Shown here: piece after piece, positions 1 to 47,300 of the stretch
Numbering within the stretch: the stretch's first letter is position 1
Layout: every line of letters begins with the position of its first letter
From: Cenococcum geophilum
Lineage: Eukaryota
DNA length: 64,000 nt
Direction of reading: 5' to 3'
Assembly (NCBI GenBank): GCA_050273025.1
Contig: CP158635.1
Coordinates: 12,028,001-12,092,000, forward strand
Program-made: the position numbers and the translations under genes
The notes under the pieces: model-generated
Databases searched by the model: none
Seen by the model: the letters and a program-made list of their open reading frames with translations, nothing else
Told to the model about the DNA's origin: nothing

Positions 1-1454
1 CATTTAATAGAGTTTACGAGCTTACTAAGCACCTCCGGCTTACTTATAGGAGGCTCTACACCCCTGGAACCTACCTCGCCGTTAACAAAACGATTTAGCG
101 CTTCATAGGTCGTGCTCCTAAGACGGTTAATATTCCATCCAAACCAACACCAAAAGGCTTTAAAATATGGATTCTGGCTAATAAGGGCTATATATTAGAC
201 TTTATATAGCACGCTAAAGGTAATAAGAAAGGCCCAGTTAATTTAGATAAGTCTTTTCTAAAGGAAGGCTTTTTAAAGACGCAGGCAGTAGTCCTTAATT
301 TACTTCTCCAGTTAGACACCAAAACAGAAGAACGCCTCTACCCACCTGGAAAGCACATTGTTTGGCTTGATAACCTATTTACAAGTGTTAAGCTTCTTAT
401 ACGACTTCGAGGCCTTGGTATTGGAGGCGTAGGAACCGTCCGAACAACTAAAACGAAGTGGGAGGAGCAGGGGGACCTTGAAGGCGATATTAAGGTGGCT
501 ACAAATGCACAAGGAAAGAAGAAGGTACCTACTAAGTAAATTAGCCGGAGGCTCGCAGAGCTTAAATTAACCCACGCTGGTCAAATTCCATGGGGTGAAC
601 TCTATGGGAAGCTTTCTAGTGACAGCCAGGTAATGGAGTTTGCTTGGAAGGACGCTAATATAGTCCTTTTTATGAGTACTGTTGACGACGGTAAGTTCTA
701 TACCTTAACTATAAAGCTCAAAAGCTAATAACGTCATACATCGCCAGGTCGCCACATAATTGTTACCCTACGGAAACGTCCTCCCCTTACTGCCAGTGGC
801 GCCAGACAGACTCGGAAGGTCTTTGGCAATAAAGATAAAAAGGAATTACCTATTCCTACCTTCATTTTCTACTATAATCACTATATATATGGTGTAGATA
901 TTGCTAATTAACTACGCGCGTATTTTACGACGCAGAGGATCAACAGGAAGACCTAGAAGCCTCTATTCCACTTCCTACTTAATATAGTAATTAGCAATTG
1001 CTATCTGCTGTCTTCCTACCCTCCTACTAATCGTTAAGTAAGCCGTACAGAGGGCCACAAACAGTTTCGAATCGACCTCCGCAACACCTTATTTAAACGC
1101 TCGATTCGCAAGCGAAAGGCCTACACACAAGAACAGCCTATTTAACGCTCTACCGACGATATTATATGGGTCCCTACAGCGCTGCATAAACTAATCAGGC
1201 TATTTCCTAAGGAGGTTCACTGCTCGGCCTGCATAGAGGCTAGCAGGCGTGCTAAGGAATCATCTATAGGGCGTCGAAAAGCTCTATCAAAGCTATCACC
1301 AAATACTACAAGGAAACCTCGTGATAGTAAGGAATGGCAGAGGCGTAAGCGTGCTCCAAGGACCCATTTTGGCTACAGTATTTGTAAAATACCGTTCTAT
1401 AGGAAGGATGACTGCTGGCTACCTTATATCGAGCGACTCAACTCCAAAGATTGA
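1..1454 (+). pseudogene. piggyBac-family DDD transposase remnant with an intron at about 691-747
   Basis: Translates as LAVNKTI*RFIGRAPKTVNIPSKPTPKGFKIWILAN...VWLDNLFTS...GVGTVR...FAWKDANIVLFMSTV...YNHYIYGVDIAN*LR, then a C-terminal Cys-rich tail (CSAC...ICKIPF...CW). Stops are TAA/TAG. GTAAGT...CAG intron. Confidence 0.85.
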
Positions 1455-7497: not shown

Positions 7498-8441
7498 TAC
7501 TATGAATAGAATTCCTGAACCTAGAGTCGAGCTAGAGTTTTACTATTTAAAATAGGGCAGTGATAGTTGCACACCCCCTAATTACTGCGCGCACACCCCC
7601 TAATTACTACGCGCACACCCCCTACTAAACAGGCTTAGATCTTTCCACTTTAAGTTAGAATATCACATGTGTTTGACTTGTTTACACCTAAATCGCGAAA
7701 ATCAAAGTGTTAAAATACAACTCCTGTAATACCTTCAAGATCGCCCTAAGTTGGCTGGTAGGACTGCGCAGTGCTCTGTGAGGCGCCGTAAGAACTAGAT
7801 TGGGTGCTGCTGTCTCTATTTGATGTTTGTAGATTGCCTCTGTGGGCACTTCTGCGCGCACGCGCACGCCCATGCGCACGCGCACGCCCGCCCGCACGCC
7901 CACGCGCGGGTAGTTGTAGCCAGTATTTCACTCAAATGCTGAGAGCTCCCACCGAGCAGAGTTATCAATGCGATTTGTAGAGCCAGCCAGGCGATTATAA
8001 CAATGCTTTACAATTGCAGGCTCTTGGATAAGAAGGTAAGGCAAATGCGAGGTGTCGGCACGTGGTGTTGTTTTCGCGATTTTATCTCAGTTGACTCAGC
8101 CGCTCCGCAGGGAAATTTTTGGCGGTTGCATAACTCAGCACGTACCACACCCCCCTGCAACCCTGAAGTTCCTCAGCGGAGCGTCTGAGAGAATATGGGC
8201 GCGCGTTTGGTGCAAACTGGGTCCATCTAAAATTTCCCTTCGGCGTCAGTGAGCTGCCATAAGGGCAATACTGCAGCTATTATCTTAGTTATTAATGCAT
8301 TTAATTCTTAAGGGACTTAAGTATCTCTTTCTAATAGTCTTAGGACTCTACCTATTTTATTAGGGGGCGAGATACAGCCTTAAAGATTAAAGACGTGGTT
8401 TTAAAACTGGTCCCCTACCTTTTCCCTATAGTTGCATTTCC

Positions 8442-8538
8442 CTACTATAGCTTAGATCTCTATAATAATTTAAAAGCTACTTCTTTTTACTAAGGAGAAG
8501 CAGCTTTTAAATTATTAGAGAGATTTAAGTTATAGTAG
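8442..8538. repeat. Imperfect palindrome with about 43-bp arms
   Basis: CTACTATAGCTTAGATCTCTATAATAATTTAAAAGCT... pairs with ...AGCTTTTAAATTATTAGAGAGATTTAAGTTATAGTAG. Confidence 0.8.
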
Positions 8539-8604
8539 AGAAGTTCTATCTTAAAAGTAGAAGAATATCTAGCTTATAAAGCGTGCACAAGGCGCCCATT
8601 TTCC

Positions 8605-8755
8605 CTTAGACCCTCAGTGAGGAATCCACCTGCGAGCACGTGAATCCACCTGCACGGGCCATAAATCTGCACAACTTTAAGATGGAAGGTAGAACCGGGC
8701 GTGCCCAGGTGCACAACTCCCACAGCAGGTGGAAATTCCTCACCGAGGGCCTAAG
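8605..8755. mobile_element. Small MITE-like inverted-repeat unit nested in the long-TIR element
   Basis: CTTAGACCCTCAGTGAGGAATCCACCTGC versus GCAGGTGGAAATTCCTCACCGAGGGCCTAAG. TTA/TAA at the edges would fit PIF/Harbinger. Confidence 0.55.
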
Positions 8756-9086
8756 TCAACTGAGATAATCGCGATTTAGGTGTAAACAAATCAAACACAC
8801 GTGATTCTCTAACTTGAAGTGGAAAGATCTAAGCCTGTTTAGTGGGGGGTGTGCGCACAGTAATTAGGGGGTGTGTAACTATCACTGCCCTTAAAATATG
8901 TGCACTAACGGTTAGTATATATCCACGAGTGGCGTAAAAAGTAAGGGTACCCGCATCCGGTAGGGCTGTGAATGGTTAACCTTTGTAGCCTAAGGGCTTT
9001 AATTAATTATAAACGGAATAAGTATTTGTAATTATGTAGTAGTGCAGTTCTAGAACCCTCTGTTTTTTTAGAAATCCGCAGGCTTA

Positions 9087-9569
9087 CAGTTGTTTGCGAA
9101 ATATCGTCGACAGTGTGTATAGACGCAATGCGGCTCACCAAATTTACAAAATACCCCATTGTGCCCTACCGCCCTACTAATATGGTTCTAAATTTTATAA
9201 ATAAAGGCCTATTTTATAGCTCTATTCTAGAGCTATAAAATAAGGCTCTATATATGTAAATTAGACCAATATTGGTGGAATTATATGGGGTGCTTTACAA
9301 CGGCGTTAAACTTAAATTAAGGCTCTGCGCTGATTAATTTAACCCCTCTAGCCCCAAAAATAAGCACCCTATATAACCCCATTAATATAGCTCTAAATTA
9401 TATAAATAAGGACTTATTTTATAGCTATAGAGTGGGGCTATAAAATGAGCCCTTATTTATATAATTTGGAGCTATATTGGTGGGGATATAGGGGGTGTAT
9501 TGTTTTGATTAGGTGTAGTAAACCGCATTGCGTCTATGCATACTGTCGACGATATTTCGCAAACGACTG
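9087..9569. mobile_element. Tc1/mariner-type MITE (483 bp) with two internal hairpins
   Basis: TA|CAGTTGTTTGCGAAATATCGTCGACAGT... and ...ACTGTCGACGATATTTCGCAAACGACTG|TA, TIRs about 47 bp. Internal foldbacks at about 9172-9278 and 9377-9485. Confidence 0.88.
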
Positions 9570-10114
9570 TATCTAATCTCGTTTAGTTGGCTTAGCTTCC
9601 TTATAAATTATATTAGGATGGCGTTGCAATAGTATAGCCTTAAATAAGCGAGCGCTAAAGGTAGCTGGGCTGTGTTATTTTATAAACATGCTTATAGGGA
9701 GTGCCCCTTTATATTGTTAGCAACCCGAACACTTCGCTAGCCTAGAGGATTATAACGCGAAATAGAGTATAATAGAACACGAGCGTATCTCTAAGTAGAA
9801 ATACACTTGTATAGCAAGCGTTTGAAATTATTACTAAATAGTAATAAATACTTATGATAACCTAAATATAAAGCTCTACGTATGTTAATAAATAGAGAAG
9901 TGACTATTAGTACCTATATAACCATAAATGTTAACAGAAACTAATTAACGAGCGCTAATATAAAAATATTACTAGTAGAGCTTATTATAATAGTGTACCT
10001 AACGGCTTTAGAGAACTCCTATAAATTTATAGGCAAAATCTAGACACTTCTTATAATGCCCTTCAATTTCTTACGATTAAGCGCGTTATTTAGTTTCCTA
10101 TTATATCCTTAAGG

Positions 10115-12307
10115 TAAATATAAACAAAAGTCTAGTTCTATTAAATAAATGTCCTTATTTAATATACATTAAACAATCTTGCGAATCTTATAGCTCGTCT
10201 TATTATTTATATATACTATTTTTATATTTTAGTGATACTAAATAGTAAATAGATTATTATAACTTATAGGAAACCACTATACGACCCTTTTAACCTTCGA
10301 TTTCAGATTTGGTTAGACTCTTAGCCTTTATAACTACATATATTATACTAATACAATCTCTAAAATACACAATATCTTTTTACTTGGTTTTAATAAAAAT
10401 ATAATTACCTAAGACAAAAAGCTAAATATTAAAGATCTAGTAGCTAATTAATATAAATATCTTATTAAAATCTAAGTAAATAAATCTATTATTATATTAG
10501 CGACCTAAGCTGCGTACACTTTTAGAGCGGTTATTAGTAGCCATCTATATAAATGTATAAAAGAGCTTATATTTAGAGTCTAGTCCCTAAAATAGAGCAA
10601 TCCTTTAAGTTTTTACTTTATAATTATAGTATCCTTCTAGAAGCTATATAATATATAGAAGCTACCCTACTATTCTAATCTCTATAGCGAATAATAGGAT
10701 AGTCCCGTATAATTTAAGGTTAAGTTAATTTTTATACAGTCCCTTAATTACGGCTCTTATTTTAGAATTATAGCTATTATTAGCGTTTAAGTATAGGTTC
10801 CTTATAAATCTACTTCTTTTCTAGATAATAAAGACTATAACGGTATTGCCCCTAGTATCGCGATACCACTAAGATATATAAAAGGGGTGCGACTGCATAA
10901 ATAAGGTATAGCTTACTGTAAGAGTATATATATTAGGTCCCGCCGCGCTTACAACAAGTTCGCAAGCACTCTTAGTCTTTTTGGCCGTATGGCGACGTAA
11001 AGGCGGGCCACGTTACAATTGTGCTTGCGAACTTACTGGGGCCAGGTGTTGTGGGTTTAATCCCCATCGGTTACTTCGCTCTGGTACAGTTTAACGCACA
11101 TCCATACGATAAGGCGTCAGTAGAGATTCCGATCGCTTATGTTACTAGGGACTAACTAATATGGTAATACTCTTGGCGTTTAATCCCTGTGGAGGCCCAA
11201 ACGGGCGCATAGAGGAATCCCTGTGAGCGCTCGGGGACGAGCGCGTAGAGGAGAGGGCAATTGTAAGAGTATATATATTAGGTCCCGCCGCGCTTGCGAC
11301 AAGTTCGCAAGCACTCTTAGTCTTTTTGGCCGTATGGCGACGTGGAGGCGGGCCACGTTACACTTACTCCTAAAATGTAAAGATAAACGTACTAGCTAGC
11401 TCGGGGCTTCTAAGGTCTTAATAGTTGTATATATATATATATATATATATATAGCATCCTAAATAGGTATCTCTTTCCTATTAAGTGTTTTAAAGGCTAT
11501 TATTCGTACTATTGCTTAATTTAGTAGCTTTCTATACTTAATATTGCGGTATAGCACTTACCCAAATTATAGAACGCCTATAAATATCTATAGGTATATT
11601 ACTAAGAATAAATATATTGTTAGCGACGTTAATAACTCTTTAGATAGACTGTAAAGATATATAGCAGCTGTAACTATAGCCGCGAGTATTAAGTAGAGCT
11701 TTAAGAAGATTTCGTAGACGTATTAACATATATTAGCGACTAAAAAGAGCAATATAATAACTATAGCGATAGTAGCCTGCTTATTAGCTTATATCTATTT
11801 CCTAAGATTAAGTTAACTTACTATTAGCGCCGCTATATCTAACTATATACGTAGGTTAGGCTTATATAAAGATATAGCCGCTACTATATAGATAAAGCCT
11901 TTAACTATAGCTACTCTTCCTAACTATTAGTATATCTAGGCATATACACTAAGCCTAATTCTATAGCGGCTAGTAATAGTATTTATCTAGCCTCCTAATA
12001 ACAGCGGTATAAGATTAATTATAAATATTAGCCTAGAGCGTCTTATTAGCCTAGAAATATCTTTAACTTAAAATAGTAACGTAAAGAACGTTCCCTACTA
12101 AGAATGCCAGAATTAAAACTATATTAAATTGTGTTGTCTTTTTAGAGCCTCTTAAGTATCGATTAACTATAGATAAAATAGGTGCTTAAAAAAATATAAT
12201 ATGGCGTAAATGCGAGTACATTTAATTATTATTAATACTAGACAGCTAATAATAGATAATGCGATAAGGCCTCTAAGGCCCACTAAATACTACTACGTAA
12301 TATCTAT
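10115..12307 (-). pseudogene. RIP-inactivated ferric reductase / NADPH-oxidase-like (FRE) gene, interrupted by a TRIM
   Basis: The minus strand gives, in order: (M)DIT**YLVGL; INLIPLLLGG; IY**LGRVAIVKGFIY; YVYEIFLKLYLILA; RP*KPRAS*YVYL; QSHPFYIS*W; RAVIKGLY; YGTILLFAIEIRIVG*LLY; T*RIALF*; IELDF. These de-RIP to the FRE heme, FAD (HPF) and NAD (EGPYG, ATGIGIAGQLPY) motifs. Ends approximate. Confidence 0.85.
10917..11362 (+). mobile_element. TRIM (miniature LTR retroelement, 446 bp)
   Basis: 101-bp TG...CA LTRs at 10917-11017 and 11262-11362. 5-bp TSD CTTAC on both sides. Polypurine tract AGAGGAGAGGG just before the 3' LTR. 244-bp non-coding interior. Confidence 0.93.
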
Positions 12308-12660
12308 AGTAAAAATAGTGGATATGCAAATCCTAGGAACGCGATATATATTCGCCATTTATACCTTATATTTTAACTATAGGTCGCGGCTTAGAATACA
12401 CTAATATTAGTTATAACTTAGAAAGGTAGGGGGCTGGAAAAGGGCTCTTTGCTAAAAGCCAAGAGTTTTTTTTAAAAAAATTTTTATACTAATATACGGC
12501 CGGCGTCCCAAGACTAGAATATTAAGAATACTTACGCTTTATAGTATACGGTATAGCAAAGTAGAAACAGTCTATTAAGCTCTATAATAAACAATTAAAG
12601 AGGTAGTTAGATAGCTTAAAAAGTAAATACTATTAGTACGGAAAGCTAGACAATATTAAT

Positions 12661-13670
12661 AATAATTCTTCTTTAATTAACGTCTAATACGGATGCTATC
12701 TAGCCCCACGCAGACTACTCCGTATATAAGGGAAAAGTAATATTAACGGGAAAAAACCCTTACTGCTGGGGGGGAGGAAAAACCCTATAAGCCACCTTAG
12801 TAGGATAAAAAACCCCATTTGCTATATCCGCATATAGCAGCGGCCCTATAGGCCTACAGCTATATCCTATCCTCCTTAGATATTTAAACTCCTTAGGAAC
12901 CACTGCTTCCTTCTCTAGCTTATCTAAGCTAGGGTTTACTACGTCCCAGCTAGGCCTTACCACTTAATTACTGTGTCTTACTATTATCTCCTATATCTTA
13001 GCCATCCCCTATATACTATCTCTTATTTAACTATTGCTATATACGCTATACCTCCCCCCCCCTAGGGCCTATTAAAGGCGTAAGGGGGATTTATCCGTTT
13101 TAACTACTATAATACTAATAAGCGAGCGGGATATTATATATTTAGGTATCTTTTATACCTAGGCCCCAGCTAGGCCCTTTCTAAGGGTTACTACTCCGTT
13201 AAAAGAAAATAGGGAAAACCGTGGGTCGCAATCTAGGCTGCTAGGTAATATTTAGTAGAAAAAACGGCGAGTAACCGTATACTCCGCGGGCGATCGCCCT
13301 AGGGGTTAAGAGGGGCCGTATATTTACTTATTGCTTATTTATTCGCGATCGCTCGTTTATTAATATAAGAGGTCGTTAATGCTTTCTATTAGGGGTTAGG
13401 GGATGCTATTAAATGCCGTTTATCTACGTTGGATTATATAGGTGCCTTAATAGGAGAATAGCGTAGCTGAATTATAGAGGGCCATAGTAGTAGTTTTTGA
13501 GATCTTACCATCTAAAAATTTTTTACTACCGCCTATAACGCTCATAACCACGACTACTAGGTCCTATCGCACGCTATATAACGTCTCTGCGTTAGCTCTA
13601 AGTCTGAACTTTAAAGACCTAGGTTCGTAGCTGTCACTACGTATAGGTGCAGAGTCCGTTTTTGACGGCC
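12661..13670 (-). mobile_element. About 1.0-kb non-autonomous non-LTR retroposon, copy 1
   Basis: Inverted copy of 43362-44380. 15-bp TSD CTAGACAATATTAAT at 12646-12660 and 13672-13686. Short (ATT)n tail. No RT motifs seen. Confidence 0.88.
13585..13670 (-). ncRNA. Putative HDV-like self-cleaving ribozyme at the retroposon 5' end (copy 1, RIP-damaged)
   Basis: GGCCGTC(P1) AAAAACGGA CTCTGC(P2) ACC(P3) TATACGT(L3) AGT(P3') GACAGCT(P1') AC GAAC CTAGGTCT-loop-AGACTTAG(P4) AG CTAAC(J4/2) GCAGAG(P2'). The order and spacing fit the HDV double pseudoknot. Confidence 0.72.
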
Positions 13671-16600
13671 ACTAGACAATATTAATTATTTATAATTATA
13701 AAAAACAAGAGATCTATATATATATTAATAGATTAAGAGTTATAGTGGCTGTCTAGGGAGCAAGTTATAAGTAGGTAGTTAAGTTATAAGCGTCTTTATT
13801 TTTAACGTCTAAGTAGCTAGCATATCTTAAGTTTATAAACGAGCTTCCTGTAAATATAGAGAGAATTAGGTTAGAAGTATATTCTAAGTCTATAGGTGTA
13901 GGAAGGAAGAAGAGATTAAAAAAGGTAGCAAAACGATTGCATCTAGGGTATTGACATTTAAAGAAGGGATATCGTTAGTTGTAAAAAATGCGCTAATCTT
14001 TCCGAAACTATTATCGTTTAATTTAACTATACTAAAGAGGAGAAGGCGTAATTAGGCTTAGCTAGGGATTATCTTATAAATTAGACCCCTGGTAGATTGT
14101 TAGTATATACGCTATAAGCGTATATATATACTGCCTTTTCTCTATAAGGGTCTAAGAGCTTATTGTCCTAGCTTTAGTAGTAGCTTAAAGTTTTAAAATC
14201 CTGTCGCAATCTTACCTTCCTGTATATCTTATATAAGTTATTTTTTTTACCTAAAAATTATAATTATATCGTTGCCTTACCGCTTAGTTAGTAGAGAGCT
14301 ATTTTTTATAGTATAATACGAACCGTGTACTATAGCTCTACTATTAAGTTCTTATTACTTCTAATATAAATAAAAAGGCTATATCTAAACCTAAGAACCT
14401 CGCTATTATACTAGAAAGTCGTCTTTAGCCCTATAGCTGCTATAGAGCGTAAACTTATATAACGTCGCCACCCTAGTTAGTACCTCTAATTAATAAGATC
14501 GATAATCCTAGTTAGTGCGAAATAACCCCGCACTTCTTATATAATAATTACGGGATATATTTAAGATAAGTCTGTAGCTGTTATACCTATAGCTAATACG
14601 CCTATAGCTAGTATACCTATAACTTAGCGTTATCTTAAGAATATTTAAAACTAAGTAAATGCCTTAGGCCGTAAAGCTATAGGCTCTATCTACGTTACCC
14701 TATTTTTTTGCTTTGCGCTCACACGTTTCTGCTAAACTATCTATATATTACGGGACGGGGGTAGTAGCTATAGAGTGTATGTATTTAAGGAGTCTATAAA
14801 ACGTTACGCGATTAATCGTAAGGAGGTAATATACCTACGCGTAACTAATATAAGCTGTACGCGAGGTATACGCAAGAGCACGGGGCTCTCCTATAGAGGC
14901 CCCTGCGGTAGGGTTTTATAATACTACCCCCCCTTCTATAAAGGCGGAGCTTTAGTAACGCTATGGTTATTATATATATATAAAAGGGACACTTAAGGTA
15001 TAGAAATAAAGAAAAGGGGGGTATTGCTAAAGGCTTAAAATAATGTTATATAATAAGGCTTAGCATTTAAAAATCTAACTAATTAGATAACTTTAACCGC
15101 TGGTTAAAGTTTCTAGACATTTTAACGATATTCTAGTTACGTAATCGCACTTTACCGCAATTTAACGGCAATTTAACGGTAATTTACCCTTAGGTGGTAA
15201 TATATAACAGTTTAACTCTATAAGGGCTTCTATAGAGGATTAGGTATAAAATCCCTACTTAGGCCCAGTTTCTATAGGTTCGCGTAATAAAAGTCGCTAA
15301 TTAGGTCCTTTATATTTTTAAAGTCTTCCTATAGTTGCTATTCTAGCTATTTTATATTAAATCCTATATATATAGCTCTATAGTAGAGCCGTTATCCTCT
15401 ACCTTTACTAAAGTATTTAGAGTTAATAATTTATTTAATAGTCTACTCCTTATAGTTCTTATCTTTATTTTTATCTTAAATTAGTACTAGTAGGAGGTTA
15501 GGCTATATCTACCCTAGTAAGGGGTTAGGCTAATAGAGGTATAGTAGCTATAGGTAAAATACGGGCTATATCCCGTGGGTGGCTAGGGTAGGTAAAAGTT
15601 TTAGCTTATATATAGCTCCCCTATTAATAACTTATTTAATTAAATAGGGGCTAAGGTTCTTATAATTAAGTGACTTTATAGGCCTTTACGTAGAGATATT
15701 ATATATATCTAGCTATACCTAGTCGCTAATACGCATCTCTAGTGGTGGCGTTTTATAATAGTTAGCGAAGTAAGCCTACTTTACTTAAGCCTAGGCCATT
15801 TCTCCCTTATAGTAGTTAAGTAGATTTTTTATACGGTTTATATACTAGTTGGTAAGTAGTATCTTAAGGCGTTTTCTATATAGTGGTTTCTTATTAATAG
15901 GTTCTATTAGCTCTATACCAGATTAGGGGTAAGTCCTATAGTGGTTAAGATATAGTTATTTAGTACGAATTTACCTAGTAGGAGGTAATCTACCCAGTTA
16001 TTTTAACTATAGGCGACTACCTATTATAGGTATGCTTTTATACTAGCATTAGCGTTTTCTAGTTACCCAGTAGTTTTATAGTAGAAGGATGTAAATATCT
16101 TAACAGAGATGCTAAGGCGTTGGTAGATTTATCTCTATATATTAGAGTTAAATTATATACCTCGGTTAGACGTAATTAAGTTAAGTAATCTATATAGTTA
16201 GTAAACTTCGTAAAGAAAGGCGTTAGTAACGTTGCTAACGGCTACGTCTTTAGTTAGGACGTAGTGGCGCTCCTTTATAAGTTAGTATATTATTATAAGG
16301 ATATTCTTATAGGTACGGCTATATTATTTATAGGGTGGTATATTAATAATAAAATCTATAGCAATATCTGCCTATTGTTGCATAGGTACTAATAGAGGGT
16401 ATAGTAGTCCTTAGTACTTTATATTAAAGGCCTTAGCGCGCTTATAACTATAGCAGGCGCCTATAAAGCGTTTAACTAAGTCTATTATTTTTAGCTAGAA
16501 GTAGTATTGGCTAAGAAGTTCGTAAGTTCCTCCTCTGCCTAGGTAGCCGCTTAATTAGAGGTTATAGGCCATTTAAATTAGTTACTGTTATAGATTTTTA

Positions 16601-17133
16601 AGTTAGGGATAAATAGGCGGCCTCTATAATAGAGCCTATTCTCTTTTACTTTTAAGGCTGCTATATTAATCTAGCCTAAGCTTTAAAGGTTAGTAGGTAG
16701 CGTACAAGCGCTAGCGGTCTTTGCGATAATAAGTTAATATAATAATAGGTTAACAGAGGTGTTATATACTATAGTAATAAGCTTATTAATTTTAGGAGGT
16801 AACTTTAGTTCTATAGTATAAAGTTAAGGTATAATTAGCTCTATTATAGGTAGTATACCTAGGGCTACATTTTATGCTTTTAGGATTATTTATTATTAGA
16901 ACTAATTATAAGGGTTATCTTTAAACTAAGGAAGGTCTTATAAGCGGCGTATTAGGCTATTAGGTTTAGTACCTTATACTCTTAATCTATATATAATTTT
17001 AAAGTTAAAACTAGAGAGGAACTTATTTTAATGTACTTAGTATTAGTTTAGCTACTTTATAGTTATAAAGTACTTAAGGTTGCGATAGTCCGTAAGGACT
17101 TTAGTTGGCTAGTTAGGCTCTACTAAGGAAAGT

Positions 17134-17338
17134 TATAACCGACTACGGTACCCTGCCAAAACACTACCTTGTCTTGTCTCGTATCACTATATACACCTTA
17201 ACTCGCTCACCAACTCGGCCACTAACTCGGTTAATTACCCCTTATTTCCTACGCCTTCTTTATATATATATACTACTTTAATTTCCATAGATTTACAATT
17301 AAGTTGCTCGTTTAATACCCACACTGTAAAAGCTTACA
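17134..17338. mobile_element. Solo LTR (205 bp) of a family not otherwise seen here, inserted in Gypsy A1 RNase H
   Basis: T(G>A)TAACC...CTTACA with TSD AAAGT on both sides. The empty site is present in Gypsy A2 at about 45836-45840. Confidence 0.88.
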
Positions 17339-17630
17339 AAAGTTCTAGTTAGAATTCTTTAAACGCTTATATAATTATAAGAAGTTCTTTATTATAGATC
17401 TTATAGTTACACTCTTATAGTATAAGCTTAAACGAGTAGAATGCGACTAGGTAAAGGAGACCGTTATTACCTATTTAGGAAAGGACGTCTACGTTAACGT
17501 AGTCTAAGGAGTCGGTTTTAAGATAGAGTTATTATCCTAGTATAAAGTAAGCTAAGATAGGTGCTTTGGTAAAGGCATTTTTAAGGTTTTAAAACGCCTT
17601 CTTATATTTAGGCGTTTAGGTAAAGTATAG

Positions 17631-20600
17631 TGTTCGTACTAACTTAATAGCACGAGTAAGTCGTATCCACGGGCACGAAATACATGTAGTATCGTATGCT
17701 TGTTTGGATGGTGACTGTCGATTATATAAAGCAGACTACGTGGTCTATATACTGATGCACCTCCCCCCTAATTAGTTAGTGCTTTATAAGTACACCAGAC
17801 GCGTAAGCGAGTAGTTAGTGCACTGAACGCGTAAACGCGTACCTGGTGTACCGAACGCGTAAGCACGCGTTTAGTACAACAGGTGCTGTAATTATACACT
17901 AGCAGTACTTGAAAAATGAAACCACCTATATACAGCCTCCGTAATTTCTTTAATAAAACCATAGAACACAAAGGAAAATACATAGGAAATCTCCCCCGAG
18001 GTGCCGTCTAGGCTGCCTTTCAAACGGTACCTCAAGCTGGCCGTAAGTCCTGCTTACGGTCCATAAAATAAACCGTACGGCCTTTTAACGGGCAGTAAAT
18101 CAGATTTTAAGGGCCGCCAAGGCGCTAGTGCTAAGCGAGCCAATGGCGATTTTCCATGCCCGGCATGGAAAATCGTAATTGGTTAATTTAACCATTGTGG
18201 CAGAATATAGCAGAATTCGGCAGGTCACGTAAGTCCACCAAGTTCTATTACAGCTTTCCACCGTTTTTCCACCTAATAGCTTACAGTCCGTAGAATAGGC
18301 TATACAATAAGCCGTACGGCCTTCTAACGGGCCGTAGGCGTACCATAGGTACTCCGTTAGTCCCGTTCTACCTATTCTATAACTTTTAGGTTAAGCTTAT
18401 TTATATTAATTAGGGTTTTAAGGGCTTAACACGGCTTTGCCTTAGTTATAGCGTCCGCTGGGTTATCTCCACTGCTAATCCATTTAACCTCTATAATCTT
18501 ATGTCGTTTATAGGCCTAATATAAGCACATTAGGTCGACCATAAGCCTCTTCTCTTATATCGTACTTAGTTTAACTAGGCAGTCGTAAAGGGACTTTAAA
18601 TCAGTGCATAAAACTAGGGGTAACTGCTCTAGTTATAGAATCTTCTAGACCGTTAATTTAATTACGGCTGCTATATTAAATCCATAAGCTAGTATATATA
18701 GTTTAGAAGCTAGTATACTATGGGTTACTTATTTACACTTAATTAAAGACCAGTGCAGTATATTTACGTCCTAATTATGGTCTGTAAGTATAATTACAAA
18801 GCCAATTTGTAATAATAGGTCTTTATTATTAGCAAAGGAGGCGTCTATAAATGCCAGTAGGCTAAGGGAATTCAGGTCTAGTGGTATAAAAGTAAGTCCC
18901 CTTGCTGCATTATCAATTTGCCACTAAATGCGCTTATTAAGCTGCTTAATATTTTCTTCTTGCGGATCTACTGCCTAGGCCGTAAAGGATAAGTCGTAGG
19001 CAGATTTGGGTTAGCAGACTATAGCAATATAGGCGCCTCTTACACGCTGTGCAGCGTATTAGTCCTTTATATTTACGGTCTTATAGGTCTCTTTATGGGA
19101 ACTAGTAAGGTCCGTAGGCTTTACTATAATAAGCTTTAGGTTTTAAGCTTAGCGTTCCTAAGTTAGCTTAATTAGGTTACCCTTTTATATAATTAGGCCT
19201 CTATTAAACTTAATTAGATTCTGCTTAGTTAACTACTCTTATAGCTTTACCAAGAACTTGGCCTTTTATAGTTTAGTTTCTTTAGCGTCCGTAAAGGTCT
19301 AGTCTACTAGGAATAGGGTATTGTCTATTTAAAGTCCAATAATACTAAGGCCGTTTAATGGGCTATATAGGAGGCAGGGGTCGTAGGTTAACTATTCTAT
19401 TTTAAGCTTACTAACGTGATACTAGTGGTACGTCTTAAACTAGTAGTTCTTAGCTTCTAGTACTCTATAAAGAGGTTTTATAACCTATAAAATTGTTCCT
19501 AGTTATAGGTTAAGCTTATGGGGTAGTCGTATAAAGATGTCCCTACTTAGATAGGTATTAGACTACATATAGGCTTATGAGATGTCCCATAAGTATAGGG
19601 CTATGGGTTTAGTTTACTGTAGTCCCGGCACAAGTGCAAGTATAATTCGTTAGCTAACTTATTAAATTATAGGCGATTGCGTAAGGACTAAGTCCTTTCC
19701 CTTATCGTTATAAGCTTATACGACAAGCCTTAATTTCTTAAAGGCTTTATTAGTACTAGGGTGCTTAATCTTGTTAATAAAGCGTAAGTTAAATATATAG
19801 ACGCCTTGCGGGACGTCTTTCTCTATTATAACCGTAAAGACACCCTTTTTAAGTAGTCCGTTAATCTCTTTACGTCGTAAGTCTGTAAATGGGGTTTCCT
19901 ATACTAGAACTAATATATCCGTAGGCGGAGATTACCTTGCGGATATTCCTACGGAGGTTAGGTAATTTTTTATTATGGTGTTCTTAGTTATAGGGTGCTT
20001 TTAGGGGCGTCCTCAACCACGCTTTATAGTAGGTTTAGTAGGTTTAGTAGGTTTAGTAGGTTTCTAGGGGACTTTTAGGGTAGGCAAGGGTGCTTCTAGT
20101 TCGTCTAATTTAGCGGGTGCTTCCGGTTTGTCTAGTTTAATAGGTGCTTTTAGTTTATCTAGTTTAACGTCATAGGTGTTTTCGGGCTAAAAGTAGGGTT
20201 TTACGGACGTGCTTCTAAAGCTGGTTGGCCTACTAGGAAGCTATACGCAGCACGTCTCATTTTCTACGGCTAGTAGACGATAAGGTCTATTTTAACTGCC
20301 GCTTTTACGCCATACAAGGACTTCAGAGTTAAGCGGGAGGTCATGTACTGGGGTCGTGTTAGGTCCATTGCGGTAGTACAGGGCGTTATTAATAGCTTAC
20401 TTAGCCCGTAGCTTAACTATTTTAGTTATTACCTTCTATATTATAGCTGCTCGTTCCGTAATAGACAAAGCAGGAGAGCCCAGGTTGCTTATTCTTAGGT
20501 AAGCTCCATAAACTAAGAGGGTAGGTACTAGTCCATTAGGGCCAGCGGTGTCGTTAATAGCTTTTACGGCTATCTATAAAGCCAGTTCCTTTTAGATGTC

Positions 20601-35300: not shown

Positions 35301-35347
35301 TATCTACTTTACTACATATTATCACCGCTTATACTCACTCCGTAACA
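29387..35347 (+). mobile_element. Ty3/Gypsy chromovirus, family B, full length, RIPed
   Basis: 359-bp LTRs 29387-29745 and 34989-35347. TSD CTTAA. PPT AAAGGGGGGG. gag with LCFKY knuckle remnant, RT (LRFCVDY, MLFGLANA), RNase H ([10 protein letters not shown]), integrase (ETDG*TERVN) and chromodomain. Confidence 0.94.
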
Positions 35348-35651
35348 CTTAACTACTATATTGCCTAGGCTTTGTCTTATTCCAGCGCCAATACTAAACA
35401 TTTTAGTTAAATTTAAGACTATACTATAGCTATCTATACCGCCTATAATTCCTACATCAGGAAATTTTTTTTGGGGCTCGTTGTTGCGGTTTGCGGCAGG
35501 TGGATATAGTCGATAGCAATTTGCGCAAAACGCACGTTTTGCAACAAGTTTGCAGCACCCTAATAGCAATTTACGCGTTTTATAACAAATTTGCAGCATC
35601 TAATAGCAAATTGCGGCAAAATGCTACCCTATAAATAAATAGTGCGCAAAC

Positions 35652-36150: not shown

Positions 36151-36225
36151 ATGTCACCTTAATTCGATCGATCGATCGAATCGTTTATCGTGTTCGCTAG
36201 CTAGTCGTTCGAACGGTTGTCGTGT

Positions 36226-36829: not shown

Positions 36830-36999
36830 TGCTAGCTGTCATTCTGGTGTCTTCCTAGGTAGGGAGGATATAAGGAAGGGTAAAAAATAAGGTGGCTACC
36901 TAGGTGTATATAGGGGGTATACTTGGCAGAGGCACGTGTAGAGGCTATCGGGAATATAGCGGGGACCCGATAGTAGTGTGTCGCGCGCATACACATAAA

Positions 37000-37163: not shown

Positions 37164-37168
37164 CTGGC

Positions 37169-42390: not shown

Positions 42391-43361
42391 TATTACGGAA
42401 CGGGGGCAGTGGCTATAGAGCGTATGTATTTAAGGAGTTTATAAGACATTACGCGATTAATTGTAAGGGTTAAGGGGGTAAGGAGGTAATATACCTACGC
42501 GTAGCTGATATAAGCTATACGCGAGGTGTATATAAGAGCACGGGGCTCTTCTATAGAGGCCCCTATAGTAGGGTTTTATAATATTACCCCCCCTCCTATA
42601 GAGGCGGAGCTCTAGCGACGCTATAGTTACTATATATATATAAAAGGGACATTTAAGGTATAGAAAAGAAGAAGGGGGGGTATTGCTAAAGGTTTAAAAC
42701 AATATTATATAATAAGGCTTAGCATCTAAGAATCCGACTAATTAGATAACTTTAACCGCCGGTTAAAGTTCCTAGATATTTTAACAATATTCTAGTTATA
42801 TAATCGCACTTTACCGCAATCTAATAGCAATTTGCCCTTACGTGGTAATGTATAACGGTTTAACTCTATAAGGGCTCCTATAGAGGATTGGGTATAAAAT
42901 CTCTGCTTAGGCCCGGTTTCTATAGGTTCGCGTAGTAAAAGTCGCTAATTAGATCCTTTGCATTTTTAAAGTCTTCCTATAGTTGCTATTCTGGCTAATT
43001 TGTATTAAATCCTGTATATATAGCTCTATAGTAAAGCCGTTATCCTCTGCCTTTACTAAAGTATTTAAGTTAATAATTTATTTAACGGTCTACTCCTTAT
43101 AGTTCTTGTCTTCGTTCTTATCTTAGATTAGTACTAGTAGGGGTTTAGGCTATATTTGCCCTAGTAAGGGGTTAGGCTAATAGAGGTATAGTAGCTATAG
43201 GTAAAATATAGGCTATATCCTATGGGTGGCTAGAGTAGGTAAGAGTTCTAGCTTATATACGGCTCCCTTATTAATAACTTATTTAATTAAATAGGGGCCA
43301 AGATTCTTATAATTAAGTAACTTTATAGCCCTTTATATAAAGATATTATATATATCTAGCT

Positions 43362-43447
43362 AGCCGTCGAAAACAGACTCTGCATCTATACGTAGTAATA
43401 GCTACAAACCTAAGTCTTCGAAGTTTAGACTTAGAGCCAACGCAGAG
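43362..43447 (+). ncRNA. Putative HDV-like ribozyme (copy 2, more damaged)
   Basis: Same layout as copy 1. Perfect 8-bp P4 CTAAGTCT/AGACTTAG, P2 CTCTGC/GCAGAG, J4/2 CCAAC. P1 and P3 carry transition mutations. Confidence 0.65.
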
Positions 43448-44380
43448 ACGTTATATAGCGTGCGATAGGACCTAGTGGTCGTGGTTGTGAGCATTATAGG
43501 CGGTAGTAAAAAATTTTCAGATAGTGAGATCTCGAAAACCACTACTATGGCCCTCTACAATTCAGCTACGCTATTCTCCTATTAGGGCACCTATACGATC
43601 CAACGTGGATAAACGGCATTTAATAGTATCCCCCGACCCCTAATAGAAAGCATTAATAACCTCTTATATTAATAAATGAGTGATCGTAAATAAACGAGCA
43701 ACGAGTAAATATACGGCCCCTTCTAACCCCTAGGGCGATCGCCCGCGGAGTATACAGTCACTTACTGTTTTTTCTACTAAATACTACCTAGCAGCCTGGA
43801 TTGCGACCTACGGTTTTCCCTATCTTCTTTTAACGGAGTAGTAACCCTTAAAAAGGGCCTAGCTGGGGCCTAAGCATAAAAGATACCTAAATATATAATA
43901 TCCCGCTCGCTTATTAGTATTATAGTAGTTAAAACAGATAAATCCCCCTTACACCTTTAATAGGCCCTAGGGGGGGGGAGGTATGGCGTATATAGTAATA
44001 GTTAAATAAGAGATAGTATATAGGGGATGGCTAAGATATAGGAGATAATAACAAGACACAGTAATTAAGTGGCAAGGCCTAGCTGGGACGTAGTGAACCC
44101 TAGCTTAGATAAGCTAGAGAAGGAAGCAGTAGTTCTTAAGAAGTTTAAACATTTAAGGAGGACAGGATATAGCTATAGGCCCATAGGGCCGCTGCTATGT
44201 ACGGACATAGCAAACGGGGTTTTTTATCCTACTGAGGTGGCTTATAGGGTTTTTCCTCCCCCCCAACAGCAAGGGTTTTTTCCCGTTAATATTACTTTTC
44301 CCTTATATACGGAGTAGTCTACGTGGGGCTAGTTAGCATCCGTATCAGATGTTAATCAAAGAAGAATTATTATTATTATT
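43362..44380 (+). mobile_element. About 1.0-kb non-autonomous non-LTR retroposon, copy 2
   Basis: TSD TATATATCTAGCT at 43349-43361 and 44380-44392. (ATT)5 tail. The empty site is visible in Gypsy A1 at about 15700-15715. Confidence 0.9.
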
Positions 44381-47300
44381 ATATATCTAGCTATACCTAG
44401 TCGCTAATACGTATCTCCGGTGGTGGCGTTCTATAGCAGTTAGCAAAGTAAGCCTACTTTGCTTAAGCCTAGGCTATTTCTCCCTTATAGTAGTTAAGTA
44501 GATTTTTTATACGGTCTATATGCTGGTTAGTAAGTAGTATCTTAAGGCATTTTCTATATAGCAGTTTCTTATTAATAGGTTCTAGTGGCTCTATACTAGA
44601 TTAGGGGTAATAACCCTTATTCGCGAAGAACGGGGTAAGTCCTATAGTAGTTAAGATATAGTTATTCGCTATAAATTTACCTAGTGGGAGTTAATCTACC
44701 TAGTTATCTTAACTATAGGCAACTACCTGTCGTAGGTACGCTTTTATACTGGTATTAGCGTTTTCCGGTTATATAGCAGTTTTATAATAAAAGGATATAG
44801 ACATCTTAACGGAGATACTAAGGCGTTAGTAGATTCGTCTCTATATATTAGAGTTAAATTATATACCTTGGTCGGACGTAATTAAGTTAGGTAGCCTATA
44901 TAGTTAGTAAACTTTATAAAGGAAGGCGTTACTAACGTTACTAACGGCTACGCCTTTAGTTAGGACGTAGTAGCGCTCTTTTATAAGTCGGTATATTATT
45001 ATAAGGATGTTCTTATAGGTATAGCCATATTATTTATAGGGTGGTAGGTTAATAACAAAATCTATAGCGATATCTGCCCATCTTTATATAGGTACTAGTA
45101 GAGGGTGCAGTAGTCCTTAGTACTTTATATTAAAGGCCTTAGCGCGCTTATAACTATAGTAGGCGCCTATAAAGTGTTTAACTAAGTCTATTATTTTTGG
45201 CTAGAAGTAGTATTAGCTAAAAAGCTTATAGGTTCCTCTTTTACCTAAGTAGCCGCTTAATCAGAGGTCATAGGCCATTTAGATTAGTTGCCGTTATAGA
45301 TTTTCTAAATTAGGGATAAATAGGCGACCTCTATAATAGAGCCTATTCTCTTTTACTTCTAAGGCTACTATATTAATCTAGCCTAAGCTTTAAAGGTTAG
45401 TAGGTAGTATATAGGCGCCGGCGGTCTTTACGGCAATAAGTTAATGCAGTAATAGGTTAATAGAGGTGTTATATACTATAGTAATAAGCTTATTAATTTC
45501 GGAAGGTAACTTTAGTTCTATGGTATAAAGCTAAGGTATAGTTAGCTCTATTATAGGTAGTATACCTAGGGCTAAATTTTATACTTTTAGGATCGTTTAT
45601 TATTAGAACTAATTATAGGGGTTATTTTTAGACTAAAGAAGGTCTTATAAGCGGCGTGTTAAGCTATTAGGTTTAGTACCTTATACTCCTAGTCTATATA
45701 TAATTTTAAAGTTAAAACTAGAAAGGAACTTATTTTAATATACTTAGCATTAGTTTAGCTACTTTATAGTTATAAAGTACTTAAGGTTGCGATAGTCCGT
45801 AAGGACTTTAGTTAGCTAGTTAGGCTCTACTAAAGAAAGTTCTAGTTAGAATTCTTTAAACGCTTATATAATTATAAGGAGTTCTTTATTATAGATCTTA
45901 TAGTTATACTCTTATAGTATAAGCTTAGACGAGTAGAATGCAACTAGGTAAAGAAAACTGTTATTACCTATCTAAGAGAAAACGTCTGCGTTAACGTGGT
46001 CTAAGGAGTTGGTTTTAAGATAGAGTTATTATCCTAGTGTAAAGTGGGCTAGGATAGGTGCTTTAGTAAAGGCATTTTTAAGGTCTTAGAACGCCTTCTT
46101 ATATTTAGGCGTTTAGGTAAAGCGTAAGTACGTTTTTCTTTCTTTTACAGAAAGGCCCTTTATTCGTATTATTGCTATAAGTAGTACTACTACGCCTAAG
46201 AAGTTATATATAAATTTCTAATAAAAGTTAGCGAAACTAAGGAAGGCTTATACGTCCTTAATACAGTTAAAGGCTTGCTATTTAGTAATTATATATACCT
46301 TCTTAGGGTCCATATAGACACACTTAGTAGTAACAATTAGTCTAAGGTATTTTACTTCTATAACTAAGAATTCGCATTTCTTTAAGTTAATATAAAGTCC
46401 TACGTCCCTAAGGCGTTATAGGACCTTTTAAACGTGTTTAGTATGCTTAAAAAGGTTATTACTATAAATAAGTATATCGTCCAGGTACGCGGAGTAGAAG
46501 TCATTAAGATAGTCCTATAAGGTGTTATTAATATAGCTTTAGAAGGTGCCTAAGCCGTTATATATGCTAAAGGGTATAACGGTATATTTAAATTAGCTAA
46601 AGCGCGATATAAATGCGGTTTTCTATTTATTACCTTCCCGTATTTAGAGATAGTTAAAGGCGGTAATAATATTAAGCTTAGTATAGATTTTAGCTTAGCT
46701 AAGCCGCTTAAGGGTCTCCCATATAAGCGGTACTGGGTATTAATTTTTAATTATAATAGCGTTAAGTCCTTTATAGTTAATATAGAATTAGATACCTCCT
46801 CCTAGCTTCTTAATAAGAAGAATAGGGATAGCTGCTAGTAATATGCTAGGACGAATAAACCCTTTATTAAGGTGCTCGTTAATATACTTTCTTATAACTA
46901 GAAGTTCGTCTTTTAATATTAGGTAGGGTCTCTTATAAGGTAGCGTTTTTCCTTATTTAATATTAATAGTATAGTTATTAGGTTAATATAGGGGGAGTAT
47001 ATCTACGCCCTTTTATAAGTATATATTAATAAAGTTATAATACCTCTTAGAGAGGAGCTTACGGAGTTCTTTATTAGTAAGTCCTTTTTTAAGTTTTATA
47101 AACTTCTTAAAGTCTAAAGGTAAAAGTCTGTGGAGTTCCGTAGGGGCGTCGTCTTCTAAAAGGTTAATTATATTTATCCTATTACTATAGAGGACGTAGT
47201 CCTATTCTTTATTAAGTTTATATAGTTATAATTAGGAAGCTATAGCAATGGTCTAGCCTTTCCTATATACTATGCAGTAAAAGGCCGCGGCATTTACGTA

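What the first reader, a model, noticed from the sequence alone, without database searches (positions are those of the whole stretch)
12661..13670. Ribozyme-headed ~1-kb non-autonomous retroposon, present as two independent insertions
Seen: two copies (12661-13670 minus, 43362-44380 plus), each with its own 13-15-bp TSD and (ATT)n tail, with no RT motif and the same 5' nucleotide. The first 86 nt parse as P1 GGCCGTC/GAC(A)GCT with a G1-U wobble, P2 CTCTGC/GCAGAG, P3 ACC/(A)GT, a 7-nt L3, an 8-bp P4 and J4/2 C(T/C)AAC. Established: HDV-like ribozymes cleave just 5' of G1 and define the 5' ends of some LINEs; variable-length TSDs with simple-repeat tails indicate target-primed reverse transcription. 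Inference: a SINE-like parasite that uses self-cleavage rather than a pol III promoter and borrows a LINE RT, or a ribozyme-bearing RNA that was retrotransposed. Random 5' truncation would not give identical starts.
Basis: partly seen in the sequence, partly recalled or inferred. Interest (0 to 1): 0.9.

Follow-up and report, generated by a model that had tools for sequence, protein, structure and literature searches.

The report
Ribozyme-headed fungal retroposon, two dead copies
The two 1-kb repeats are mutation-riddled copies of a high-copy, non-coding jumping element whose first 86 bases fold like a hepatitis-delta-type self-cutting RNA, a design known from animals and trypanosomes that I did not find described in fungi.

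Summary
Copies 12661-13670 (-) and 43362-44380 (+) are 92% identical (79 transitions, 1 transversion). Each has its own 13-16-bp target-site duplication and an (ATT)n tail.

They belong to a high-copy family. A metagenome scan returned 121 further copies at about 119 different sites. Homology always starts at the same G1. Of 51 loci with enough flank, 40 show an exact 10-20-bp duplication ending at position -1, about 1 kb of non-coding body, and microsatellite tails.

This gives a complete HDV-type double pseudoknot: a G1·U42 wobble, a 2-bp P1.1, a P4 of variable length, and C76-N-A-A in J4/2. A strict descriptor hits nt 1 in 38 of 121 copies, nowhere else in 460 kb, and never in 22.8 Mb of shuffles. 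On the 106-nt head alone, the two best of 4,227 Rfam families are HDV-class, but far below threshold.

RNA-seq shows abundant sense-strand RNA with a sharp 5' edge. Self-cleavage is untested and no partner LINE was found.

Verdict: a new member of a known kind (compare NARTc and R2 SIDEs).

The parts
12661..13670 (-). Copy A of the ~1-kb non-autonomous retroposon (nt 1 = 13670), heavily mutated by C:G>T:A transitions
   Evidence: 162 of 208 substitutions against a G/C-preferring family consensus are C>T or G>A.
13585..13670 (-). Copy A HDV-like head, element nt 1-86. P1 13664-13670/13629-13635; P2 13649-13654/13585-13590; P3 13646-13648/13636-13638; P1.1 13643-13644/13627-13628; P4 13615-13622/13598-13605; candidate catalytic C76 = 13595. 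Damaged here at nt 8, 27, 33, 39, 51, 58, 59, 70, 71 and 77.
12667..12721 (-). Copy A 3' module (~55 nt), the only part shared with a second, short retroposon family. Presumed recognition site for the partner LINE RT.
   Evidence: shared with short elements in L030 and L047. The function is inferred.
12661..12666 (-). Copy A (ATT)n tail. A third ATT may belong to the target.
   Evidence: Tails of relatives are (TTA)n, (TAC)n or (TC)n.
13671..13684 (-). Copy A target-site duplication, 5' copy
   Evidence: 13 of 14 identical to 12645-12658; the last base is a C/T transition.
12645..12658 (-). Copy A target-site duplication, 3' copy
43362..44380 (+). Copy B of the same retroposon (nt 1 = 43362, G>A)
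   Evidence: 156 of 200 substitutions are C>T or G>A.
43362..43447 (+). Copy B HDV-like head (nt 1-86), more damaged in P1 and P3 than copy A
44311..44365 (+). Copy B 3' module
44366..44380 (+). Copy B (ATT)n tail
43349..43361 (+). Copy B target-site duplication, 5' copy (TATATATCTAGCT)
44380..44392 (+). Copy B target-site duplication, 3' copy. Its first base overlaps the tail.

Best explanation
The two repeats are dead copies of a high-copy, ~1-kb, non-coding non-LTR retroposon of a filamentous fungus. They were inactivated by RIP-like mutation.

Proposed cycle:
1. An element is transcribed on its sense strand, from its own promoter or by read-through. This source is not known.
2. The first 86 nt fold into an HDV-type nested double pseudoknot and cut the RNA just 5' of G1, so every template RNA starts at the same base whatever lies upstream. 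This step is inferred.
3. A ~55-nt 3' module plus a microsatellite tail is recognised by the reverse transcriptase of a LINE that has not been found. This is inferred from a second retroposon family that shares only that module.
4. Target-primed reverse transcription at AT-rich sites copies the RNA to its very 5' end, giving full-length insertions with 10-20-bp duplications. The products are shown.
5. C:G>T:A mutation then degrades the copies, as in this window. This is shown.
For: Family and mobility:
- 120 heads have at least 30 nt upstream, and only one pair shares a site. Median flank identity is 0.45, against 0.93 for element nt 1-30.
- 45 of 51 loci with enough sequence hold the whole ~1-kb body.
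- 40 of 51 have an exact 10-20-bp duplication ending at -1, with lengths of 14 (n=11) and 15 (n=14) commonest. 38 of these 40 elements measure 986-1050 nt.
- In DNA runs, depth inside the element is about 100-1000 times that of the flanks, with sharp edges at both ends. 14 contigs leave the element exactly at 13670 into unlike sequence.

Fold:
- RNA reads and most DNA contigs read G at nt 27, 33 and 39. This restores C4-G39 and C25-G33 and creates G27-C44.
- On 114 distinct heads, 95.4% of cells pair, against 28-42% when the 3' partners are slid by 1-3 columns.
- Pair 52:70 is GU 46, AU 44, GC 23, unpaired 1.
- P4 comes in 8-, 6- and 5-bp forms that stay paired.
- A strict descriptor hits nt 1 in 38 of 121 copies, hits nothing else in 460 kb, and hits nothing in 22.8 Mb of shuffled sequence.
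- On the 106-nt head alone, the two best of 4,227 Rfam families are RF02682 (14.6 bits, E 0.81) and RF01787 (12.6 bits, E 2.5). Both match full length, start at nt 1, and use the same P1/P3 and P2/P3/P4 registers.

RNA:
- Reads are strongly strand-biased to the element's sense strand (for example 1534.8 vs 29, and 871.9 vs 34.9).
- 542 of about 1053 molecules end at nt 10-11.

Non-autonomy and head type:
- There is no conserved ORF.
- There is no tRNA-like head.
Against: - No cleavage assay and no 5'-end chemistry are available.
- No Rfam HDV family comes near its gathering score. There was nothing at all at E<=10 on the window copy or on 12 kb of little-mutated loci. The two hits are individually insignificant.
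- Covariation is thin. Most variation is RIP-type transitions, which can mimic compensation: only 6 of 26 pairs change on both sides, and 135 of 500 shuffles reach that count.
- The nested-only MFE is unremarkable, z = -1.63.
- My descriptor was written after I had seen the parse.
- RNA fragment ends pile up at nt 10-11, not nt 1. I attribute this to loss of the extreme 5' end in library construction, which is my own knowledge and was not tested.
- The metagenome pattern required nt 1-50, so 5'-truncated copies could not be sampled.
- No LINE with the 3' module or the head was found in the window or in about 460 kb of loci.
Confidence: 0.8

Rival explanations
1. The head is not a ribozyme but an internal promoter or initiator, or a protein-binding structure, that fixes transcription initiation at G1. 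The HDV-like fold is then coincidental or serves another role such as RT binding.
For: - A uniform 5' end with sense RNA is equally expected from an internal promoter.
- In L1Tc/NARTc the same 77 nt act as both promoter and ribozyme (PMC3383444, abstract seen in the search listing).
- Rfam scores are far below threshold.
Against: - The complete double pseudoknot with G·U at +1, P1.1 and C-N-A-A in J4/2 sits exactly at nt 1. It was found 0 times in 22.8 Mb of shuffles and 0 times elsewhere in 460 kb.
- The top two Rfam families are both HDV-class.
- There is no tRNA-like head and no match to any Rfam family (tRNA, 7SL and 5S are among the pol III RNAs that library models).
Confidence: 0.1
2. 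This is not a dedicated parasite. It is retro-copies of an abundant cellular non-coding RNA that happens to be ribozyme-processed and is captured by a LINE. The analogy is the WEIRD RNA / MINE chimeras of Magnaporthe.
For: - The RNA is very abundant in RNA-seq and in metatranscriptome contigs.
- WEIRD is a 1113-nt highly expressed non-coding RNA that the MGL LINE retro-copies in full length (PMC2104539, passages read).
Against: - There are hundreds of copies.
- Several subfamilies exist with different P4 lengths, 3' modules and tail repeats, which implies many active source copies.
- A dedicated LINE-type 3' module is shared with another retroposon.
Confidence: 0.07
3. Same mechanism, different origin: the element is an internally deleted derivative (SIDE/NARTc type) of an unseen autonomous LINE that carries the same ribozyme head and the same 3' end. 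This differs from the main explanation only in where the head came from.
For: This is how the documented cases arose: R2 SIDEs (PMC3414825, abstract seen in the listing) and NARTc, which shares its first 77 nt with L1Tc (PMC3185411, passages read).
Against: - 0 of 121 fetched heads is followed by anything other than the 1-kb element's own sequence.
- The 3' module is also carried by an unrelated short element.
- The sample is limited and LINE copies may be rare.
Confidence: 0.3

Closest known systems
NARTc / L1Tc of Trypanosoma cruzi (L1TcRz, Pr77)
   Same: A non-coding, non-autonomous non-LTR element whose first ~77 nt form an HDV-like ribozyme cutting at +1. It inserts at dispersed sites and depends on a LINE (PMC3185411, passages read).
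   Different: NARTc shares its head almost identically with its LINE. Here no LINE with this head was seen. The host is a fungus, the tails are microsatellites, and cleavage is untested.
R2 SIDEs (short internally deleted elements) of Drosophila
   Same: They keep a 5' HDV-like ribozyme and a 3' RT-binding end, have lost the ORF, and are mobilised in trans (PMC3414825, abstract in the listing; PMC6765202, passages read).
   Different: SIDEs are rDNA site-specific and are processed from a 28S co-transcript. This family inserts at many AT-rich sites with 10-20-bp duplications.
Fungal HDV ribozymes (Li & Breaker 2017: 230 variant representatives in 26 species, plus 11 canonical ones found earlier)
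   Same: HDV-class ribozymes in filamentous fungi. Two were shown to cleave at the base of P1 (PMC5640933, section 7 read).
   Different: Those variants have a C-G pair at the cut site, an E-loop in P4 and an extra base between P2 and P3. This head is canonical: G·U, a plain P4, and P2 abutting P3. That paper assigns no function, and the word 'retrotransposon' does not occur in its main text. Its alignments were not among the supplements held, so overlap cannot be excluded.
Mg-SINE / MGL and MINE (WEIRD-MGL) of Magnaporthe
   Same: Fungal non-autonomous retroelements that mimic or carry the 3' end of a LINE, with 10-20-bp duplications. WEIRD is a ~1.1-kb abundant non-coding RNA copied in full length (PMC2104539).
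   Different: No ribozyme is mentioned in the passages of that paper that I read. My recollection that Mg-SINE has a pol III-type head comes from no call. No sequence comparison was made.
Rfam RF02682 (HDV-F-prausnitzii) and RF01787 (drz-agam-1)
   Same: These are the best two of 4,227 families on the head. Both alignments are full length, start at nt 1, use the same helix registers, and show a similar P3-L3 core and J4/2.
   Different: Scores are 14.6 and 12.6 bits against gathering scores of 44 and 37. By Rfam's own test this is not a member of either family.

Membership tests
HDV-like self-cleaving ribozymes | Nested double pseudoknot: P1 and P3 nested, P2 crossing P1, P1.1 between L3 and J1/4, and P4 inside P2 | tested here: met
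   All five helices are present in register. 95.4% of 2922 cells pair, against 28-42% when slid. The strict descriptor hits nt 1 in 38 of 121 copies, 0 elsewhere in 460 kb and 0 in 22.8 Mb of shuffles. The descriptor is mine and its criteria are recalled from the literature.
HDV-like self-cleaving ribozymes | Cleavage site at the 5' base of P1, closed by a purine-pyrimidine pair (usually G·U) | tested here: met
   Pair 1:42 is G·U in 103 and A-U in 11 of 114 distinct heads. Nt 1 is independently fixed by duplications ending at -1 in 40 of 40 scored loci.
HDV-like self-cleaving ribozymes | Catalytic cytosine in J4/2, followed by N-A-A | tested here: met
   C76 is at least 90% conserved and A78 and A79 are invariant. 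Both Rfam alignments place it on the models' J4/2. Its catalytic role cannot be tested here.
HDV-like self-cleaving ribozymes | Mg2+-dependent self-scission giving a 5'-OH and a 2',3'-cyclic phosphate | not testable with these tools
   RNA-seq shows a sharp sense-strand 5' edge but not the chemistry of the end.
HDV-like self-cleaving ribozymes | Match to a curated Rfam HDV-class covariance model at its gathering score | tested here: not met
   There is no hit at gathering and none at E<=10 on 321 nt or on 12 kb. Only sub-threshold hits appear on the 106-nt head. These models cannot represent pseudoknots, and the class has little conserved sequence (PMC5640933).
Non-autonomous non-LTR (TPRT) retroposon | Variable-length target-site duplications and a simple-repeat 3' tail at many unrelated sites | tested here: met
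   40 of 51 loci have exact 10-20-bp duplications. Of the other 11, six are interrupted by nested repeats (no 3' end or no duplication scorable). Of the remaining five, two that I compared by eye (L030, L065) differ only by a transition. There are about 119 distinct sites. Tails are (TTA)n, (TAC)n or (TC)n.
Non-autonomous non-LTR (TPRT) retroposon | No reverse transcriptase or endonuclease ORF | tested here: met
   The longest open frames are 54-117 aa in six little-mutated copies and are not shared between them.
Non-autonomous non-LTR (TPRT) retroposon | 3' end shared with an autonomous LINE | tested here: inconclusive
   The last ~55 nt are shared with a second, ~290-nt retroposon. No LINE carrying the module was found in the window or in the loci. 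The source genome and the metagenome contigs could not be searched further.
SINE in the strict sense | Head derived from tRNA, 7SL or 5S RNA, with an internal pol III promoter | tested here: not met
   ARAGORN finds no tRNA-like gene in 4 loci. The heads match no Rfam family at E<=10; tRNA, 7SL and 5S are among the pol III RNAs that library models. At ~1 kb the element is also long for a SINE.
SIDE / NARTc-type deletion derivative of a ribozyme-headed LINE | 5' ribozyme and 3' end both shared with the parent LINE | tested here: inconclusive
   0 of 121 heads leads into a LINE body.

The most novel reading that the evidence does not exclude
The ribozyme head is not inherited from the partner LINE. 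On this reading the family is a composite 'ribozyme-SINE': an HDV-like head, an unrelated ~850-nt body, and a 55-nt LINE-recognition tail that it shares with an unrelated short SINE. That would be a third way to build a non-autonomous retroposon, beside pol III-promoter SINEs and deletion derivatives of LINEs. The element would rely on read-through transcription plus self-cleavage. By extension, the functionally orphan HDV ribozymes already catalogued in 26 fungal species could be heads of similar elements.
Probability: 0.3. Interest if true: 0.75.

Novelty: new member of a known kind. Interest (0 to 1): 0.55.

Why it matters
HDV-class ribozymes have been catalogued and shown to cleave in fungi, but without an assigned role (PMC5640933). 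Ribozyme-defined 5' ends of retroposons are documented for insects, other metazoans and trypanosomatids (PMC6765202, PMC3185411, PMC3414825).

This family links the two. In a fungus it shows a canonical HDV-type fold sitting exactly at the 5' nucleotide that more than 100 independent insertions define, with hundreds of copies and abundant sense RNA.

If cleavage is confirmed, three things follow:
- It gives fungal HDV ribozymes a concrete biological role.
- It offers a simple model for how a promoter-less parasite obtains precise ends from read-through transcripts.
- It provides a marker for annotating an abundant, so far unclassified repeat in repeat-rich fungal genomes.

Three searches found no paper linking fungal HDV-like ribozymes to retroposons. 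The library lacks most subscription journals, and two key papers could not be read.

Tried and rejected
- **Rfam.** Nothing at gathering score on the window. At E<=10, only an unrelated PreQ1 match on 13400-13720 and only miRNA/snoRNA noise on six little-mutated loci.
- **Source genome.** Not held. The metagenome records behind the loci could not be searched.
- **Earlier findings of the scan.** Nothing for this sequence, this genome or the six keywords. The listed 'HDV ribozyme' notes (8 shown of 79) concern phages and one DNA transposon and do not bear on this.
- **Six-frame Pfam scan of the whole window.** Smaller requests were accepted. The + frames of 8001-19002 gave no family. 30397-34984 is a Ty3/gypsy pol, which cannot drive target-primed insertion. 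The remaining frames and regions were not scanned, so a degraded LINE in the window is not excluded.
- **Long open frames in loci and window.** 6 of 9 were scanned; they gave TPR and nucleotidyltransferase domains only, no RT.
- **Search for the 3' module elsewhere.** Only the two short elements were found.
- **Loci where homology breaks early.** L011, L033, L039, L056, L077 and L080 were checked as possible longer, autonomous forms. The material after the break is other repeats (nested insertions), not a shared LINE body. L053 also has insertions but still reaches the element's 3' end.
- **Plain MFE folding.** It recovers P2 and P4, but z = -1.63 is not informative.
- **Joints that skip the element in DNA contigs.** These (12660>13700, 12656-12660>13680-13681, with 5-24 other letters between) look like paralogues of the flanking repeat without the insertion. 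They are not clean empty sites, so I do not count them.
- **Supplements of PMC5640933.** Searched for four 13-nt head motifs with no hit, but only 3 small files are held.
- **PMC3159031 and PMC3256349.** Not held.

Full report
**What is in the window.** They align end to end without gaps. blastn gives 92.2% identity over 1009 nt and finds no third copy or fragment in the 64 kb. Over 1004 element columns there are 79 transitions and 1 transversion, and the A/T state is split 42:38 between the copies. Against a G/C-preferring consensus of 40 full-length copies, 162 of 208 (copy A) and 156 of 200 (copy B) substitutions are C>T or G>A, mostly at CpA/TpG and CpG. Both copies sit in 32-37% GC sequence between about 50% GC gene blocks. 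So these are two independently decayed copies carrying RIP-like damage.

Each copy has its own duplication ending exactly at -1. Copy A has 14 bp at 13671-13684 and 12645-12658 with one C/T transition, or up to 16 bp if the last ATT is counted as target. Copy B has 13 bp at 43349-43361 and 44380-44392. Each has an (ATT)n tail.

**It is a large family with one 5' end.** No genome is held for the window, so I used public runs and metagenome contigs. When four runs were laid on 12300-14000, summed contig depth in two DNA runs jumped from a few hundred or less in most flank bins to about 3,500-240,000 inside 12642-13667. The edges are sharp at both element ends, and 14 contigs leave the element exactly at 13670 into unlike sequence (agreement 0.49).

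- All 121 heads are preceded by unrelated AT-rich sequence.
- Among the 120 with at least 30 nt upstream, only one pair (L023/L082) is the same site. Median flank identity is 0.45, against 0.93 for nt 1-30.
- Of 51 loci with at least 1.1 kb downstream, 45 carry the whole ~1-kb body. The other six are interrupted by other repeats, not continued into a longer element.
- 40 of the 51 have an exact 10-20-bp duplication ending at -1, most often 14 bp (n=11) or 15 bp (n=14). Of the remaining 11, six are the nested-insertion loci. Two of the other five that I compared by eye (L030, L065) have duplications spoiled by a transition.
- Tails are (TTA)n, (TAC)n or (TC)n, depending on subfamily.

One caveat: the pattern demanded nt 1-50, so it could not sample truncated copies. 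Only the depth profile (head about equal to tail) and two extra copies in the flanks, both with heads, argue that truncation is uncommon.

**Not autonomous, and not a classical SINE.** Little-mutated copies are about 50% GC and have only 54-117-aa open frames that differ from copy to copy. ARAGORN finds nothing tRNA-like in 4 loci, and Rfam finds no known RNA in the heads at E<=10.

**The head.** Nearly all RNA reads and most DNA contigs read G at nt 27, 33 and 39 (13644, 13638 and 13632; for example 1060 of 1063 reads at 13638). So does the majority of the 121 heads. The undamaged head has these parts:

| Helix | Positions | Note |
|---|---|---|
| P1 | 1-7 / 36-42 | G1·U42 plus six Watson-Crick pairs |
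| P2 | 17-22 / 81-86 | 6 bp, abutting P3 |
| P3 | 23-25 / 33-35 | 3 bp |
| L3 | 26-32 | 7 nt |
| P1.1 | G27-C44, U28-A43 | directly after P1 |
| P4 | 49-56 / 66-73 | 8 bp |
| J4/2 | 75-80 | reads G-C76-C-A-A-C |

On 114 distinct heads, 95.4% of 2922 pair cells are standard pairs, against 28-42% when the 3' partners are slid by 1-3 columns.

Covariation is limited. Only 6 of 26 pairs change on both sides, and 135 of 500 shuffles reach that count. Most variation is RIP-type, which can turn G-C into A-U without selection. Two observations are harder to explain that way:
- Pair 52:70 occurs as G·U (46), A-U (44) and G-C (23), with only one unpaired case.
- P4 exists in 8-, 6- and 5-bp versions that keep pairing. 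In 18 of 114 distinct rows the two inner pairs are absent, and in 5 rows a third pair is absent as well.

A variable P4 around an invariant core is what I recall for this ribozyme class.

**Is the fold more than chance?** I wrote a descriptor of the class with these requirements: G·U at +1; 7-bp P1 with at most one other wobble; 3-bp Watson-Crick P3 abutting P1; L3 of 5-9 nt; 2-bp P1.1; 6-bp P2 within 1 nt of P3; a P4 hairpin of at least 5 bp; and C-N-R-A at most 2 nt from P2.
- It finds nt 1 in 38 of 121 copies (the rest are mutated), nothing elsewhere on either strand of 460 kb of loci, nothing in the window, and nothing in 22.8 Mb of shuffled element sequence.
- A relaxed version finds nt 1 in 85 of 121 copies, 103 other places, and 890 hits in the 22.8 Mb.

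The descriptor was written after I had seen the parse and its criteria are recalled, so the strict zero overstates the significance somewhat.

An independent check is Rfam on the 106-nt head alone. The two best of 4,227 families are both HDV-class: RF02682 at 14.6 bits (E 0.81) and RF01787 at 12.6 bits (E 2.5). Both match full length, begin at nt 1, and assign P1/P3 and P2/P3/P4 to the same columns. Both are far below their gathering scores of 44 and 37. Larger search spaces gave nothing. The element is therefore not a member of any curated Rfam family. It fits the class by architecture.

**RNA.** In a raw-read RNA-seq run of the same species label, reads lie almost only with the first mate on the + strand (1534.8 vs 29, 1350.6 vs 32.2 and 871.9 vs 34.9 in three bins). 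For the usual stranded libraries this means RNA of the element's sense strand. 542 of about 1053 molecules end at 13660-13661, which is nt 10-11. No mismatch to copy A explains a stop there, since the nearest is at nt 8. I read it as the real RNA end near nt 1, shortened by the usual loss of the last ~10 nt in second-strand synthesis. That reading rests on my own knowledge and was not tested. It shows a discrete 5' end but cannot distinguish cleavage from initiation. Metatranscriptome contigs also hold the element at very high depth.

**The 3' end and the missing partner.** The last ~55 nt before the tail recur at the 3' end of a different, ~290-nt element with its own tail and duplication, in the flanks of L030 and L047. 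Some 1-kb copies carry that element's variant of the module. Two unrelated non-coding elements sharing only a 3' module is the signature of a common, 3'-end-specific LINE reverse transcriptase, as described for Mg-SINE and MGL (PMC2104539). I did not find that LINE. Nothing else in the window resembles the element. The only RT found in the window is a Ty3/gypsy pol between LTRs at 29384-29747 and 34986-35349. One more Pfam scan (the + frames of 8-19 kb) was empty, and the rest of the window was not scanned.

**Comparison with what is known.**
- NARTc shares L1Tc's 77-nt ribozyme and cleaves at +1 in vitro (PMC3185411).
- R2 SIDEs keep the ribozyme and the 3' end (PMC3414825, abstract only).
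- In fungi, 11 canonical and 230 variant HDV ribozymes in 26 species are on record and two were shown to cleave. No function is given, and the word 'retrotransposon' is absent from that paper's main text (PMC5640933).

The present head is of the canonical type. So the kind is known. What is new is the fungal host, the link between a fungal HDV-type motif and retroposition, and possibly a head that is not shared with the LINE. My three searches found no prior description, but coverage is incomplete.

**Verdict.** I put 0.8 on the full mechanism. The retroposon part is close to certain, and the ribozyme part rests on architecture, position and weak model similarity, not on an assay.

Noticed in passing
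L030:2567-2856 (+) and L047:~1130-1433 (+): A second, short (~290 nt in L030) non-coding retroposon with its own tail and target-site duplication (TATATAATTTCTTAAT in L030). It shares only the last ~55 nt with the 1-kb element. ARAGORN finds no tRNA-like head.
   Followed up: partly
window 29384-35349 (+): A Ty3/gypsy LTR retrotransposon. Its 364-bp LTRs at 29384-29747 and 34986-35349 are 91.8% identical. The pol has RVT_1, RNase H, integrase zinc-binding and SH3 domains but is riddled with stop codons.
   Followed up: yes
window 36219-36831, 37001-37164 and about 62100-63000: Minisatellite-like tandem arrays. Related arrays lie in the flanks of L033 and L022. In translation they read as short repeated peptides.
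   Followed up: no
alignment A2, columns 49-73 (element nt 49-73): Subfamilies differ in P4 length (8, 6 or 5 bp), in the 3' module variant (…AATCAAAGA vs …AAGCAATGA) and in the tail repeat (TTA, TAC, TC). This suggests several source lineages and exchange of 3' ends.
   Followed up: partly
window 3031-3507 (+) and 4026-5723 (+): Open frames in the GC-rich block. The first has TPR repeats; the 566-aa one has no clear Pfam family. The start of the window (about 3-1400, + strand) translates to something that reminded me of a piggyBac-type transposase; this was not tested.
   Followed up: partly
window 13629-13650 (+ strand, antisense to copy A head): The reverse complement of element nt 38-48 resembles a pol III B-box (10 of 11 positions by my recollection of the consensus). 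It lies on the strand opposite to the RNA seen, and no tRNA-like fold was found.
   Followed up: no
L071:820-1338 (-): A 173-aa open frame beside one element copy carries a nucleotidyltransferase domain (Polbeta / NTP_transf_2, E about 1e-7).
   Followed up: no
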